From assembly GCA_951406725.2 (NCBI GenBank), contig OX597827.1:46872001-46936000 (forward strand): 64,000 bases of DNA. Direction: 5' to 3'. This document shows positions 2,706 to 36,266 of the stretch, piece after piece (positions within the stretch are counted from its first letter, which is position 1; every line of letters starts with the position of its first letter). The notes under the pieces are model-generated. The model was given only the letters and a program-made list of their open reading frames with translations, was not told the origin of the DNA and made no database searches. Source of the DNA: Octopus vulgaris (lineage: Eukaryota). Both the position numbers and the translations under genes were made by a program.

Positions 2706-2910
2706 TTAAATTTTGGCACAAGGCCAGCAATTTCGGGGATCGTATAAGTACACTATCCAGACTCCAGTGCTCGACTCGAACTTATTTTATTGACTCTGGA
2801 AAGATGAAAGGCAAAGTCGACTCAGCTGGCATTTGGACTCAGAACGTAAAGACGAACGAAATGCTGCTAAGCATTTGCCCGGAGTGATAATGGTTTTGCA
2901 AGAACGCCAT
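2706..2910 (-). mobile_element. SINE family B, degraded
   Basis: gatgaaaggcaaagtcgac..atttggactcagaacgtaaagacgaacgaaatgctgctaagcatt matches the copies at 7302 and 51395. Confidence 0.75.
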
Positions 2911-2920
2911 CTTAGCACGT

Positions 2921-3299
2921 TTAGCTTGCTTACCAACCACATGATTCCGGGTTCAGTCCCACTGCGTGGCACCTTGGGCAAGTGTCTTCTAGTATAGCCT
3001 CGCCCGACCAAAGCCTTGTGAGTGGATTTGGGAGACGGAATCTGAAAGAAGCCCGTCGTATATATATATATACATATGTGTTTGTGTGTCTGTGTTTGTC
3101 CCTCCCCAACATCGCTTGACAACCGATGCTTGTGCGTTTACGTCCCCATAACCAGCGGTTCGGCAAAAGAGACCGATAGAATAAGTACTGGGCTTACAAA
3201 GAATAAGTCCTGGGGTCGATTTGCTCGACTAAAGGCGGTGCTCCAGCATGGCCGCAGTCAAATGACTGAAACAAGTAAAAGAATAAGAGAGTAAAAGAG
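2921..3299 (+). mobile_element. SINE family A, 5'-truncated
   Basis: Near-identical to 1825-2242. Confidence 0.9.
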
Positions 3300-3449
3300 T
3301 ACATACATACACAATAGAAACAAACATACATATATATATGTACTAAAATGCATGCATGTATACATATAAAAGTACATAACTGCATACATGCATACGTACG
3401 AAAATACATGCGTACGTACATACATACATAAGTATGGATATATAATACA

Positions 3450-3830
3450 CTAGCAGTATCGCCCGGCGTTGCTCAGGTTTGTAAGGGAAATAACTATAAA
3501 GTATTTTTAGAGATTTATAGCCAAAAAATAGCAAAAAATGGAAAAAAATGATGGTAAATTTTTTTGAGAGTTAAAAAAGGTGGAGTTGCGTCCCCTAGAC
3601 GGTCTGTGGTTTGGGTTTCTGATTCTCGACCCCATGTCGAATTTATCGATTTTTTTCAGAACTAGGGGAACTTTTCAAACTTTTCGCTGCGTTAGTTTTG
3701 AATTATGACATTGGGCTATGTGTGTGTCAAGTTTCATCAGAATCGGTTGAAAGCCGTGGTCAGAGTGAGGGTACGAGAAAACAGACACACAGAAAACGCA
3801 CAGACAAACTGCCGTTTATATAGAGAGAGA
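3450..3830 (-). mobile_element. Non-autonomous Helitron
   Basis: Minus strand starts 5'-TC and ends CTAG-3', inserted between A and T, with subterminal hairpin cctgagcaacgccggg. Similar termini at 33612. Confidence 0.8.
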
Positions 3831-4109
3831 TAAATGCATGTATACATTATTTGTTGTTTGTATTTTCATAATGAGAGAGACAGAGAGGAAAAGAGAGAGA
3901 AAGAAGGAGAAAGCGAGAGAAGGGAGAGACAGGCAGACATATAGGCAGACAGACAGGCAGTTAGACAAACAGAGAAGAAGTATTATTATATGTTCACCGG
4001 AAGACGACTTTGAGATCTTAGAAGAAACTAACAGAGCAATTAATCTTTCCAATGTGGAAAGACAACGAATGTTACATGACAGAAATAATTGTAATTTCTA
4101 TTATAATAG

Positions 4110-5623: not shown

Positions 5624-5883
5624 TTTATATATGTGTGTATATATGTATGTACGTATGTACATACGTAAAAAGTGTTAGTTCTTTGGAATTTATTTTATTG
5701 AGTCAAACAAAATGCAAGAAACACAAACATACTAAATGAAGATGGTCATTCGAGACTTTTGGAATTCTTGCCACGAACATTTCGTGGCATTTCGGTGATA
5801 AATAAGTAATAAAAAGGAAATTGCGCTTTATGCCGATTTATATGGAAGCTCACGCCCTCTCTCTTTCTCTTCCTCTGTATACA

Positions 5884-6380
5884 TTATAATGGCTGCTCCC
5901 TCGTTATCGAGTATGGCCATTGCACGAAGCTCAACTGTTGCTGGTGCTGTGATCGAATACGACCCTCCAGCCCAGTCAAAGATCTACAATGTATTGAACA
6001 AAATTGGCAACCAAAACCTTTACCGGCAACAGCCGGCTGCAGCTGCACACGGGCTTCATGTACCCCTGCATGTCGCCCAAGTCCTCCTGCCGAATCACAC
6101 TGTCCTCCACATGCCCGACAGATATGATTAGTATGGTGTGTCACACCATCACCAGTGGCCAGGCCGTCACTCATCTGTCTCGTTTTATGACTACGAAGAT
6201 GACTCTTGAGTCCAGCTTTACTGAGGCAGGGACTTGCGCAGACATTGCATGTCAGCATCAAAGGAAGACCCTTCCCTTCTGGAAGTGCAACTCGATGCCC
6301 CTCCCGACATCCCCCCCACCCCCATGTGCAACTCGAGATCCCCCAAAAGTGGCTGTCCCCTCATGCACAATCCCTCCCCA
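5884..6380 (-). mobile_element. RTE-clade LINE 3' fragment with three C2H2 zinc fingers, apparently A-to-G hypermutated
   Basis: [19 protein letters not shown] resembles the RTE C-terminal WRxxVxxGxxxFExxR. It is followed by CNVCASPCLSKAGLKSHLRSH, CRACGGQCDSAGGLGRHAGVH and CQFCSIHCRSLTGLEGRIRSQH. One frameshift near 6320; 5'-truncated at a microsatellite. Confidence 0.75.
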
Positions 6381-6420
6381 TACATGCATGCATACATGCA
6401 TATATATCTGTATACATATA

Positions 6421-6471
<51 letters not shown>

Positions 6472-6589: not shown

Positions 6590-6890
6590 CCCTTTCCAAG
6601 CCTAGCCAGGCTCATGGGCCCGGTTTCTCGGTTTCTATTGCGTAAGTGTTCCCCCCAGCTGGACGGGACGTCAGTCCATCGCAGCGTTGCTCAAGAAACA
6701 GGAAGAAAGAACGAGAGAAAGTTGGGGGCAAAAAGGTACAACAGGGGTCGCCACCACCTCCTGCCGGAGCCTCGTGGAGCTTTAGGTGTTTTCGCTCAAT
6801 AAACACTCACAACGTCCGGTCTGGGAATCGAAACCGCGATCCTCCGACCGCGAGTCCACTGCATTAACCACTGGGCCATGGCGCCTCCAT
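6590..6890 (-). mobile_element. tRNA-SINE family C variant
   Basis: Minus-strand head tggaggcgccatggcccagtggttaatgcagtggactcgcgg..ggtttcgattccc; shares head with 7967 and tail with 57879. Confidence 0.85.
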
Positions 6891-7118
6891 ATACACTCAC
6901 ATATATGAATGGTATGAAATGTGGTTTCAGAGAATCGTATGGCTAGCAGAGAAAGCTCTTCTTACGGTCTACATATTAATACAATATACAGAAGTGTAAT
7001 GTAGAGTGTCCATGCAACCGAAATCCAGTTGATCCGAAATTATTTCGTGAGGAGTGTATATATATATATATACATACCATAAAATCAGAGGTACAAAAGG
7101 GGGGAATATGTTTATCTT

Positions 7119-7535
7119 ATTTCTTTATTGCCCACAAGGGGTTAAACATAGTGGGGACAAACAAGCACAAACAAAAGGATTAAGTCGATTATATCGATCC
7201 CAGTGCGTAACTGGTACTTATTTAATCGACCCCGAAAGGATGAAAGCCAAAGTCGACCTCGGTGGAATTTTAACTCAGAACGTAACGGCAGACGAAATAC
7301 CTATTTCTTTATTACCCACAAGGGGCTAAACACAGAGAGGACAAAACAAGGACAGACAAACGGATTAAGTCGATTATATTGACCGCAGTGCGTAACTGGT
7401 ACTCAATTAATCAAACCCGAAAGGATGAAAGGAAAAGTCGACCTCGGCGAAATTTGAACTCAGAACGTAGCGGTAGACGAAATACTGCTAAGCTTTTCGC
7501 CCGGCGTGCTAACGTTTCTGCCAGCTCGCCGCCTT
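7119..7535 (-). mobile_element. SINE family B, tandem (complete copy 7302-7535 plus partial duplicate 7119-7301)
   Basis: Minus-strand head ggcggcgagctggcagaaacgttagc, B box gagttcaaatt, core gtcgac..tttcatcctttcggg; the tail segment is repeated twice. Confidence 0.9.
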
Positions 7536-7966
7536 ATACAGAGACATATGCAGGCACAAATATACACACACAGACACACGCAGACACATACAGACACACA
7601 CATACACAGGCAATAAAACAATGGTAAATTATTGATTCGGCACAAAAGCTTACTATTTTTGCTAGGGTACAAGACGAAGAGGTGTAAGTTTTATGGCAGG
7701 AACGGCAATTTTATGGATATTAATACATGCGTTGGAATGTAATTAAACTGAAATGGCTTCAGACTGGATATTAGAAGTCAAATAATGTTATCACAAATCA
7801 GTAAAGCTTCCCAAAGATTACATGTTACTTAACTGTACGAATCACGCCAAAATTATTATAACACTGTAGTTTTACCCGTAAAATGACGGCTCTGGAATTA
7901 TGCTTTGGCTACTATGGGAATTATAAAAAAAAACATGGTATACATACAATGGTAACAATTTAACTA

Positions 7967-8334
7967 TGGAGGCGCAATGGCCTAGTGGTTTAGGGCAGCG
8001 GACTCGCGGTTTCGATTCCCAAACCTGGCCTTGTGAGTATTTATTGAGTGAAAACACCTAAAGCTTCACGAGGCTCCGGCAGGGGGTGGTGGCGACCCCT
8101 ACTGTACTCCTTCACCATAACTTTCTTTCACTCTTTCTTCCTGTTTCTGTTGTACCTGTATTTCAAAGGGCCAGCCTTGTCACACTCTGTGTGACGCTGA
8201 ATCTCCCCGCGAACTACGTTAAGGATACACGTGTCTGTGGAGTGCTCAGCCACTTGCACGTTAATTTCACAAGCAGGCTGTTCCGTTCATCGGATCAACT
8301 GGAACCCTCGTCGTCGTAACCGACACAGTGCCAC
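7967..8334 (+). mobile_element. tRNA-SINE family C
   Basis: tggaggcgcaatggcctagtgg head; matches 41638 and 52284 in reverse complement. Confidence 0.9.
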
Positions 8335-34989: not shown

Positions 34990-36266
34990 TTAGGCTGTCA
35001 AGAAAGTTCTTGCGGTTTTTTACTTTTAAATTCAGATTCACATATCTCGGCTTATACAAAACTTTATTAATCGAAATAAACACCATCAGAATCAGCACAC
35101 TTTTACCAACGCGAAACACATTTATTTATTCCAGGAGCGTAATAATCCTGCGTTCTGGTGGCAATAAAGTCATTGAAGTCGTATTTGGCATTGTCTTGGT
35201 TTTTGAAGCAGTTCTCATGCCGGAAGTTGTCGAGATGCTTGAAAAAGTGGTAGTCAGTAGGCGAGAGGTCTGGTAAGTATGACGGATGAGGCAGAATTTC
35301 GTAGCCCAATTCGTTCAACTTCAGCAGGGTCAGTTGTGCGACGTACGACCAAGCGTTGTTGTGGAGAAGAATTGGACCTTTTAGATTGACCAATGCTGGC
35401 TGTTGTCGGAGTTTCTTATGTATTTCATCCATTTGCTGACTACTTCTCCGCCGTAATGGTTTCGCATGGATCCAAAAAGTTGTGATGGATAAGACATGGC
35501 GCAGACCACCAAACAGTCACCATGACCTTCATTTGGTACAACTTTGGCTTCGGGAAGTGCCGTGGACTTCGTCGGCGCCCAACCACTGAGCTCAGCGTCG
35601 CCGGTTGTCGTAAAGAATCCACTTTTCATCGTCACAATCCGGTCGAGAAACGGGTGGTTCTTGTTGCGTAAAAGAAGGCAGGACGACACTTCAAAACGGC
35701 GTTTTTTTTGGTTGTCGTTCAATTCGTACAGCACCTATTTCTCAAGTATTTTTGTTTTTCTAATCTCTTTCAAGTGATTGGAAATTGTCGTGTACGTTAC
35801 ATCTAATTCAGAAGCAAGCTCCCGAACAGATGTACGTGGATTGGTTTCCATTAAAGCTCTTAGTTGATCGTAGTCCATATTCGATGGCCGACCACTACGC
35901 TTATCATCTTCAAGTCTCTCGTCACCGCTACAAAATTTCTTGAACCACCATTGTGCTGCATGTTCATTAGTGGTTCCTGGACCAAACCTATCGTTGATAT
36001 CGCGAGCTGTTTCAGCAGCTTATTGGCCTAGCTTGAACTGGAATAAGACAATTGTGCGAATGTGCTTTTTGTCCATGTCGTATTCAACATTCTGGAATGA
36101 ATGGCCTAATTATTCAAAAAGAAAAAGACTAACACGACTAGATAAAGCGAAAACCGGGCATTAAAATGATATATAAAGTCAAAATAATTTAACGAAAATT
36201 AATTTGAAAATACATAATTTAAAAACCAAAATTTAAAATTCCGCAAGAACTTTCTTGACAACCTAA
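34990..36266 (-). mobile_element. Full-length mariner DNA transposon (inactivated)
   Basis: 26-bp TIRs ttaggctgtcaagaaagttcttgcgg / ccgcaagaactttcttgacaacctaa (1 mismatch); TA on the right, CA on the left; 1277 bp. Confidence 0.95.
35067..36076 (-). pseudogene. Mariner DD34D transposase pseudogene
   Basis: MDKKHIRTIVLFQFKLG..LEDDKRSGRP..FLDRIVT(fs)DEKWILYDN..KVMVTVWWS..LLHNNA..PHPSYLPDLSPTDYHFF..DGVYFD*; several stops and frameshifts. Confidence 0.93.

What the first reader, a model, noticed from the sequence alone, without database searches (positions are those of the whole stretch)
5884..6380. Genomic RTE-LINE copy that looks ADAR hyper-edited: a possible fossil of A-to-I edited RNA written back into DNA
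Seen: (1) On the element's sense (minus) strand, 6380-6291 has 45 G and only 15 A in 90 nt, in an otherwise very AT-rich window. (2) All 15 surviving As follow G (9) or C (6), none follow T or A. (3) Internal control: finger 1 reads gga ctc aag agt cat (GLKSH), while finger 3 reads ggg ctg gag ggt cgt (GLEGR). That is four A>G differences in 15 nt, including the zinc-ligand His CAT>CGT; finger 2 has ctt ggg cga cat (LGRH where LKRH is expected). (4) The RTE C-terminal motif WRxxVxxGxxxFExxR..KR..RK appears as [20 protein letters not shown], and each change is explicable by A>G. The changes are patchy, with finger 1 spared. Established: ADARs deaminate A to I (read as G) in dsRNA clusters, prefer a 5' U or A and disfavour a 5' G, and are extremely active in coleoid cephalopods; APOBEC-type retroelement editing gives the opposite G>A pattern. 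Inference: a hyper-edited LINE transcript was retrotransposed in the germline, implying ADAR restricts or diversifies LINEs and that RNA edits can become heritable.
Basis: partly seen in the sequence, partly recalled or inferred. Interest (0 to 1): 0.88.

Follow-up and report, generated by a model that had tools for sequence, protein, structure and literature searches.

The report
RNA-editing scars in a jumping gene
One dead copy of a jumping gene has about a quarter of its A letters turned to G on one strand only, and a second copy on another chromosome has the same changes; most likely the gene's RNA was edited by the enzyme ADAR and then copied back into DNA, which would make RNA edits heritable, though rarely.

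Summary
Observation confirmed. Window 6380-5889 (minus) is a 5'-truncated non-LTR (RTE-type) retrotransposon copy. Against 29 sister copies, 36 of its 51 substitutions are sense-strand A>G and 2 are T>C; with polymorphic sites masked, 32 of 139 As are G versus 129 of 9,796 in 98 position-ordered copies. Changes are clustered, favour 5' U/A and avoid 3' U; 5'-G avoidance holds only in the 3' zone. Genome-wide motif searches found one more such copy (C3, same six G sites) and no antisense-edited copy among at least 1,963: about 0.1%, too rare to show a defence. The only one of 84 long copies with this copy's exact haplotype is one arm of a close inverted pair on C1, a candidate dsRNA source (rests on one rare base). 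Best reading: ADAR-hyper-edited RNA retrotransposed (0.8). Independent reads did not confirm the Gs. Ten paper searches found no report for germ-line LINE copies; the precedents are retroviral A>G and APOBEC G>A. This scan has noted the same phenomenon repeatedly on other DNA, in this genome and others.

The parts
5889..6380 (-). 5'-truncated 3' fragment (496 aligned nt) of a non-LTR retrotransposon: end of the ORF with three C2H2 fingers and the short 3' UTR
   Evidence: 87-88% to 39 other genomic copies; sister copies give C2H2 and RVT_1 matches; relatives are endonuclease+RT+C2H2 single ORFs
6288..6380 (-). 5' A>G cluster at the truncation point: 12 of 28 As, including 6 of 13 with 5' G; holds a 3-nt and a 1-nt deletion
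6166..6287 (-). Unedited patch (finger 1): 0 of 34 As changed; carries the rare family allele at 6238 shared with the C1 inverted pair
5932..6165 (-). 3' A>G zone (fingers 2 and 3): 22 of 71 As; 5' T 9/17, A 10/20, C 3/24, G 0/10 (three polymorphic As left out)
5960..5977 (-). Six Gs (5977, 5968, 5967, 5965, 5964, 5960; 5966 unchanged) found identically in the 96-nt copy at G000:C3:5,598,674-5,598,769 (L076)
5889..5931 (-). Unedited last 43 nt of the element (0 of 11 As)
5878..5888 (-). Short (TAA)/(ATGT)-type 3' tail, as in sister copies
6381..6469 (-). (TATG)/(TA) microsatellite abutting the 5' junction, typical of this family's insertions

Best explanation
This is a 5'-truncated RTE-type LINE copy whose A-to-G changes lie on its sense strand only, most likely because its RNA was hyper-edited by ADAR while paired with an antisense copy and was then reverse-transcribed into the germ line. 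Shown: the element type, the one-strand A>G excess, the clustering and neighbour bias, the second copy with the same six Gs, the rarity, and that the element's 3' part cannot form a long duplex on its own. Inferred steps: (a) a transcript holding the element paired with an oppositely oriented copy, possibly the tail-to-tail pair at G000:C1:179.642-179.645 Mb; (b) ADAR turned about a quarter of the As to inosine in patches; (c) the family's RT, acting in trans on the intact 3' end, copied inosine as G by target-primed reverse transcription and stopped at 6380; (d) the copy has since aged like its sisters (about 13 other changes in 496 nt). It is a rare by-product, not evidence of a defence.
For: Spectrum 36 A>G: 2 T>C; 32/139 vs 129/9,796 in 98 position-ordered copies. 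Sense-strand A>G is the direction expected if the RNA template was edited; editing of the first-strand cDNA would give T>C. Context: 5' T/A 24/63 vs 5' C/G 10/82, p=3.4e-4; 3' T 1/31 vs 33/114, p=0.0016; background A>G in sisters has no such bias. In the 3' zone 5' G is 0/10 vs 22/61, p=0.025; the dense 5' cluster edits GAG/GAA, which PMC3197674 (passages) reports as relatively commoner in ultra-edited RNA; 3' A is as favoured as 3' G (14/38, 13/42), in line with the invertebrate motif in PMC5625713 (passages). A separate insertion on C3 with unrelated flanks has the same six Gs and the same skipped A; chance 0.001-0.008 under a context-only model. Antisense-edited copies: 0 found at simulated sensitivity 57-89%. 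The element alone folds with no helix over 10 bp, and edited As are not more paired, so a partner strand is needed; a candidate exists: 1 of 73 three-kb loci holds an inverted second copy, it folds with 615 long-range pairs, its sense arm is itself unedited and is the only one of 84 long copies matching the window copy at all 15 diagnostic sites. Squid ADAR editing of repeats is widespread across tissues (PMC9068888, passages).
Against: The Gs were not seen in independent data (see Tried and rejected). 5'-G avoidance, the main ADAR hallmark, is not significant over the whole copy (p=0.19), and 5' C is the least edited neighbour (4/45). The across-copy strand control is only 2 sense vs 0 antisense, and the two are probably not independent. 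The link to the C1 pair rests on one rare base (4 other copies differ from the window haplotype only there), was noticed after the fact, and none of 8 other private changes of that arm is shared. Mismatch density between the two arms does not explain the patches (11, 13, 16, 5 mismatches in 97, 122, 234, 43 nt); edited As do lie in better-paired stretches (p=0.027) but 12 of 41 other partner copies fit better. In human cells ADAR1 and ADAR2 restrict L1 largely without editing and no L1 edits were found (PMC5224506, PMC8677026; passages). No inosine, RNA or enzyme was observed.
Confidence: 0.8

Rival explanations
1. A burst of RT misincorporation (dCTP opposite template A, for example under a dNTP imbalance) during this one insertion, without ADAR.
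For: Gives the same strand and direction. 5'-G avoidance is weak overall. 5 of 14 non-A>G private changes lie within 2 nt of an A>G site (expected fraction 0.20, p=0.14), and there are two small deletions in the 5' cluster.
Against: Random errors would not repeat six sites and one skip in a second insertion (p 0.001-0.008) unless one copy descends from the other; 5' U/A preference with 3' U avoidance matches ADAR; a 122-nt error-free patch between two dense patches.
Confidence: 0.07
2. Assembly or base-calling artefact (for example polishing with RNA reads); the real DNA has A.
For: No independent contig was shown to carry the Gs. Clustered same-type sequencing errors are known, though of the G-to-A type in capillary traces (PMC2873906, passages).
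Against: At least 1,963 copies with the same context read A; two loci on different chromosomes share the pattern; changes stop at the element's ends; no inverted family copy lies in the 64-kb window that could make this locus's own RNA a substrate; the copy has ordinary truncation and tail junctions.
Confidence: 0.06
3. Deamination of dA in the chromosome after insertion (ADAR on a DNA/RNA hybrid or R-loop, or an unknown DNA adenine deaminase).
For: Would also give one-strand A>G with ADAR context; ADAR activity on DNA in hybrids is recalled from general knowledge, not checked here.
Against: Has no reason to hit the sense strand of both copies or to repeat the same sites in a 96-nt copy; should also leave T>C copies (0 found).
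Confidence: 0.04
4. Variant of the best explanation, not exclusive of it: editing happened once, and the window copy and the C3 copy both descend from one already G-bearing DNA template (or C3 from the window copy's transcript), instead of from two RNA molecules edited alike. The confidence is for this sub-question.
For: Identical pattern at all 10 As of the shared cluster; the copies differ at about 8 of 96 other positions, as expected of two copies of family age.
Against: No further daughters were found at 77-98% simulated sensitivity; editing in one duplex is site-specific, so two molecules can match; the window copy has one more G (5932) in the shared stretch.
Confidence: 0.35

Closest known systems
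ADAR-linked A-to-G hyperediting in retroviruses (RAV-1, Felder 1994; avian leukosis virus, Hajjar and Linial 1995; HTLV-2/STLV-3), as cited in PMC8586724 (passages; originals not seen)
   Same: Clustered A>G ascribed to ADAR in an RNA that is then reverse-transcribed; 5' A/U preference.
   Different: Those are infecting LTR viruses in culture or hosts; this is an endogenous non-LTR element in an assembled animal genome, aged like its sisters, inserted by target-primed RT (inferred).
APOBEC DNA-edited LTR elements in vertebrate genomes (PMC4866542, passages; PMC2873906, passages)
   Same: A deaminase footprint fixed in genomic retroelement copies, one strand only, found by comparison with sister copies.
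   Different: G>A made on the cDNA, in LTR elements of vertebrates, absent from invertebrates; here A>G (3 G>A only), made on RNA (inferred), in an invertebrate LINE. PMC4866542 does not contain the word ADAR.
A-to-I hyper-/ultra-edited repeat RNAs (PMC3197674, PMC5625713, PMC9068888; passages)
   Same: Density, patchiness, inverted-repeat substrate and most of the neighbour preferences.
   Different: Those are RNA-versus-genome differences; here the Gs are in the genome sequence itself.
RTE-2_OV of Octopus vulgaris (PMC9115989, passages and supplement search)
   Same: Single ORF with endonuclease, RT and C2H2 fingers; many copies.
   Different: Five published primers have at least 5 mismatches to the family stretches I held, so probably another family; the element's sequence itself was not seen (4 supplementary files not searched).

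Membership tests
Non-LTR retrotransposon, RTE type | Reverse transcriptase ORF upstream of this C-terminal part | tested here: met
   PF00078 at E 2.3e-16 in the C1 antisense arm and weakly in L085
Non-LTR retrotransposon, RTE type | Single ORF with APE-type endonuclease before the RT | tested here: inconclusive
   Best protein relatives (43-50% identity) carry PF03372/PF14529 + PF00078, several with C2H2, in 1,050-1,190 aa; no full-length copy of this family was among the 6 long stretches fetched
Non-LTR retrotransposon, RTE type | 5'-truncated copies with a common 3' end and short tandem-repeat tail, no LTR | tested here: met
   30 of 30 loci end at the same motif followed by (TAA)/(ATGT)/(TA) repeats; variable 5' ends
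Non-LTR retrotransposon, RTE type | RT groups with the RTE clade in a tree | not tested
RTE-2_OV | Sequence identity to the published element | tested here: inconclusive
   5 of 5 primers tried have 5-6 mismatches at best, but only the 3' part of the family was held
ADAR hyper-editing footprint | A>G only, on the RNA's own strand | tested here: met
   36 A>G vs 2 T>C, p=1.5e-7
ADAR hyper-editing footprint | Clustered sites | tested here: met
   Run of 34 unedited As between two edited zones, p=0.0009
ADAR hyper-editing footprint | 5' U/A preferred; 3' U least favoured | tested here: met
   24/63 vs 10/82, p=3.4e-4; 1/31 vs 33/114, p=0.0016. The 3' U ranking is recalled; the papers read state 3' G or A enrichment
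ADAR hyper-editing footprint | 5' G depleted | tested here: inconclusive
   Whole copy 6/36 vs 30/106, p=0.19; 3' zone 0/10 vs 22/61, p=0.025; 5' cluster 6/13 (split made after seeing the data)
ADAR hyper-editing footprint | Long double-stranded RNA substrate | tested here: inconclusive
   Not within the element's last 550-1,050 nt nor in the window; candidate inverted pair on C1; its transcription not tested
ADAR hyper-editing footprint | Inosine in the RNA, dependent on ADAR | not testable with these tools
   Needs RNA data and enzyme knock-down
APOBEC DNA-edited retroelement | Sense-strand G>A clusters | tested here: not met
   3 G>A of 130 G, within the range 0-5 of sisters

The most novel reading that the evidence does not exclude
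The genome holds a complete parent-to-daughter record of RNA editing entering the germ line: an unedited inverted pair of LINE copies on C1 made a hairpin RNA, ADAR edited it with a reproducible site pattern, and the family's RT wrote it back at least twice (C14 and C3), each time stopping inside an edited cluster. Such copies would be dated fossils of germ-line ADAR specificity and of which repeat hairpins were once transcribed.
Probability: 0.35. Interest if true: 0.87.

Novelty: new variant of a known kind. Interest (0 to 1): 0.74.

Why it matters
A-to-I editing is treated as non-heritable, and cell-culture work found ADARs restrict human L1 without editing it. A germ-line LINE copy with an ADAR-type footprint would show that edited retrotransposon RNA can complete target-primed reverse transcription and be inherited: an RNA-level counterpart of APOBEC-edited ERVs, in an invertebrate. 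It makes the long-assumed ADAR-retrotransposon contact testable from genomes alone (strand control, rate per family, source hairpins, ancient site preference). The rate here, about 1 in 1,000 copies, also bounds its importance: a real route for new sequence, not a visible defence in this family.

Tried and rejected
Independent confirmation of the Gs: none obtained. 20 listed runs hold part of the stretch, none half of it; no RNA holder listed. The best share (0.38) is no more than flank plus 0-1-difference words would give (0.41). Laid at 90% and 97% on 4 runs (contigs only), the densely edited bins had no cover at 97%; the tool says contigs drop rare variants and a hole proves nothing. Two contigs lie across the 3' junction (X2: 5860-5914, 0 differences; X4: 5700-5908, 4 differences), but neither has 31 letters on the element side, so they do not count as bridging, and neither reaches an edited site; X1 and X2 show no cover left of about 5850, unexplained. 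G-rich subfamily: rejected. Local inverted partner: none in the window. Self-folding of the element: no long helix; edited As less paired (p=0.02-0.06). Exact double-edit motif: 0 matches; single-edit motif: 14 matches, 13 aligned, none hypermutated. One search's motif held an error of mine (one built-in mismatch; simulated sensitivity 9-36%), so its 0 means little. Three weak motif hits (L091 antisense; L093, L095 sense) are ordinary copies with 2-3 changes. Search for a parent sharing the rare allele: 5 exact matches, one being this copy, one the C1 antisense arm, three of other haplotypes; the C1 sense arm is missed because of two own changes. Family-wide low-level editing: not seen. No host exon was identified in the window by ORF listing (no Pfam scan of those ORFs). 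Literature: 10 searches listed no paper on ADAR-type edits in germ-line non-LTR copies; most were seen as listings only; the 2011 paper on large-scale DNA editing of retrotransposons is not held; subscription journals and bioRxiv supplements are outside the library.

Full report
What is there. The minus strand of window 6380-5889 is the last 496 nt of a retrotransposon family with at least 1,963 copies in the 2.8-Gb genome G000 (exact 18-mer count; perhaps 3,400 allowing for decay, my estimate). The genome is probably an octopus (size, about 30 large contigs, earlier notes; inferred, not tested). Sister copies encode the C-terminal part of an RT protein with three C2H2 fingers; the nearest proteins are single ORFs with endonuclease, RT and often C2H2 fingers; copies share a 3' end with short repeat tails and vary at the 5' end. 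It is a non-LTR element of RTE-type anatomy; clade placement by tree was not done, and five RTE-2_OV primers do not match the part I held.

The observation. Against 29 similarity-ranked sisters (of 40 scored among 2,668 candidates), this copy has 51 substitutions at 493 well-agreed columns: 36 A>G, 2 T>C, 3 G>A, 1 C>T, 9 others; sisters have 0-3 A>G. To avoid selection by similarity I took 98 of the first 100 position-ordered matches (the other two are the C1 pair): A>G 129/9,796, T>C 82/7,810, mean divergence 2.9%, none hypermutated; the window copy under the same mask has 32/139. Without the A>G changes it is an ordinary copy of family age.

Signature. Edits fall in two zones (12/28 As at 6380-6288; 22/71 at 6165-5932) around a spared patch (0/34) and stop 43 nt before the 3' end (0/11); the patch is unlikely by chance (p=0.0009). 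5' T/A is favoured (24/63 vs 10/82) and 3' T avoided (1/31 vs 33/114); A>G in sisters shows no such bias. 5' G is not significantly avoided overall (p=0.19): all six 5'-G edits are in the dense 5' cluster, none of 10 in the 3' zone. Ultra-edited human RNA is relatively richer in GAG and GAA sites (PMC3197674, passages), and invertebrate hyper-editing favours 3' A (PMC5625713, passages), so the pattern fits ADAR with one soft spot. The 3-nt deletion plus A>T at 6318-6315 can also be aligned as two contractions of G runs, which would add edits (read; not counted).

Other copies. I searched the genome with motifs that match only if at least 2-3 favourable As are G. Five sense motifs (one faulty) and two antisense mirror motifs have simulated joint sensitivities of 77-98% and 57-89% for a copy that spans them. 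They returned the window copy, one more hypermutated copy, and three ordinary copies. The second copy (L076, C3) is 96 nt long, has unrelated flanks and its own tail, and carries G at exactly the same six sites with the same A skipped; under a context-only model the chance is 0.001-0.008. So the two share a template or a substrate. No antisense-edited copy was found, but 2 versus 0 is a weak control. The rate is about 0.1% of copies or less.

Where the duplex came from. The last 550-1,050 nt of an unedited sister fold with no helix over 10 bp, and the window has no second family copy, so the RNA must have paired with a copy elsewhere. Of 73 three-kb loci, one (L012/L087, C1:179.642-179.645 Mb) has an inverted second copy: a 1,045-nt sense arm and an older antisense arm 630 nt apart, 91% alike, predicted to form 615 long-range pairs. 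Its sense arm has no A>G excess and is the only one of 84 long copies to match the window copy at all 15 diagnostic sites; four others differ at one site, and none of 41 position-ordered long copies is within one difference. The deciding base (window 6238) is in 1 of 54 position-ordered copies and 5 exact genome matches, and in both arms of the pair. Against: it is one base, seen after the fact; eight other private changes of the arm are not shared; and the arm-to-arm mismatches do not single this partner out (rank 13 of 42). I put this locus as source at about one half.

Is it real DNA? Not confirmed. Contigs of four runs do not cover the densely edited parts at 97% and the junction contigs are too short on the element side to count; such contigs drop rare variants of high-copy repeats. 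An artefact is unlikely given two loci, normal junctions and thousands of normal copies, but stays open (0.06). Inheritance is inferred from the assembly and from the copy's family-like age.

Mechanism and rivals. Most likely (0.8): sense RNA in a long duplex was edited by ADAR, kept its 3' end, and was copied by the family RT, which reads inosine as G (established knowledge). RT error bursts (0.07) do not explain the repeated pattern or the context; deamination in the chromosome (0.04) does not explain the strand. Both edited copies are truncated within 3-6 nt of an edited site, which may mean cleavage of inosine-rich RNA or RT stalling (n=2, untested). The claim that ADAR restricts this LINE is not supported: the edits hit a Zn-ligand His and basic residues, but the copy was already dead, and edited copies are very rare; human L1 restriction by ADAR1/2 is largely editing-independent (PMC5224506, PMC8677026; passages). 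Selection against heavily edited RNAs before insertion cannot be seen in these data.

Novelty. Known: ADAR-linked A>G in retroviruses (PMC8586724, passages), APOBEC G>A in genomic LTR elements (PMC4866542, PMC2873906; passages), heavy editing of repeat RNA in cephalopods (PMC9068888, passages). Ten searches found no paper on such footprints in germ-line non-LTR copies, within a library that lacks most subscription journals. Earlier notes of this scan report the same kind of copy at other places in this genome and in other genomes (unchecked, not used as support); none was found by sequence for this stretch. What this locus adds is a rate, a second insertion with an identical pattern and a named candidate source. 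Verdict: new variant of a known kind; interest 0.74.

Noticed in passing
L087:4056-7457 (G000:C1:179,642,055-179,645,456): Tail-to-tail inverted pair of family copies from two subfamilies that share one rare base, possibly by gene conversion between the arms; candidate dsRNA source.
   Followed up: yes
L076:1505-1600 (G000:C3:5,598,674-5,598,769): 96-nt copy with the same six A>G changes as the window copy; truncated 6 nt upstream of the first one.
   Followed up: yes
family-wide; window 6381-6469 and 5878-5888: 19 of 24 truncated copies examined have (TATG)/(TA) repeats right at the 5' junction as well as the 3' tail: the family inserts into, or builds, these microsatellites.
   Followed up: partly
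window 6318, 6049-6048, 5976, 5959: Five of 14 non-A>G private changes lie within 2 nt of an A>G site, mostly on its 3' side (p=0.14); the C3 copy has two more near its edits. Possibly RT errors near inosine.
   Followed up: partly
window 5940 (minus): T>C turns the family's stop codon after finger 3 into Gln, so the dead frame runs on through the 3' UTR.
   Followed up: no
window 5700-5850: Runs X1 and X2 have no cover left of about 5850 although an X2 contig extends 945 letters further; X4 and X5 cover it. Possibly a structural difference beside the insertion.
   Followed up: no
window 6617-6889, 7112-7536, 7965-8334, 1484-2267, 2760-3342: Several dispersed SINE-like repeats with 4-6 copies each in the window at 70-90% identity; 7118-7485 is a tandem pair of 185-nt units. 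Not checked for A>G clusters.
   Followed up: no
window 3441-3832: 396-nt stretch 94.7% identical to the flank of L004 on another chromosome: a young repeat of another family.
   Followed up: no
window 35106-36161 (minus): Broken frames whose peptides look like a mariner-type transposase (resemblance recalled, not tested). DNA transposons like this are the negative control for a genome-wide scan.
   Followed up: no
L015:1505-2770: Two family pieces in the same orientation about 700 nt apart.
   Followed up: no
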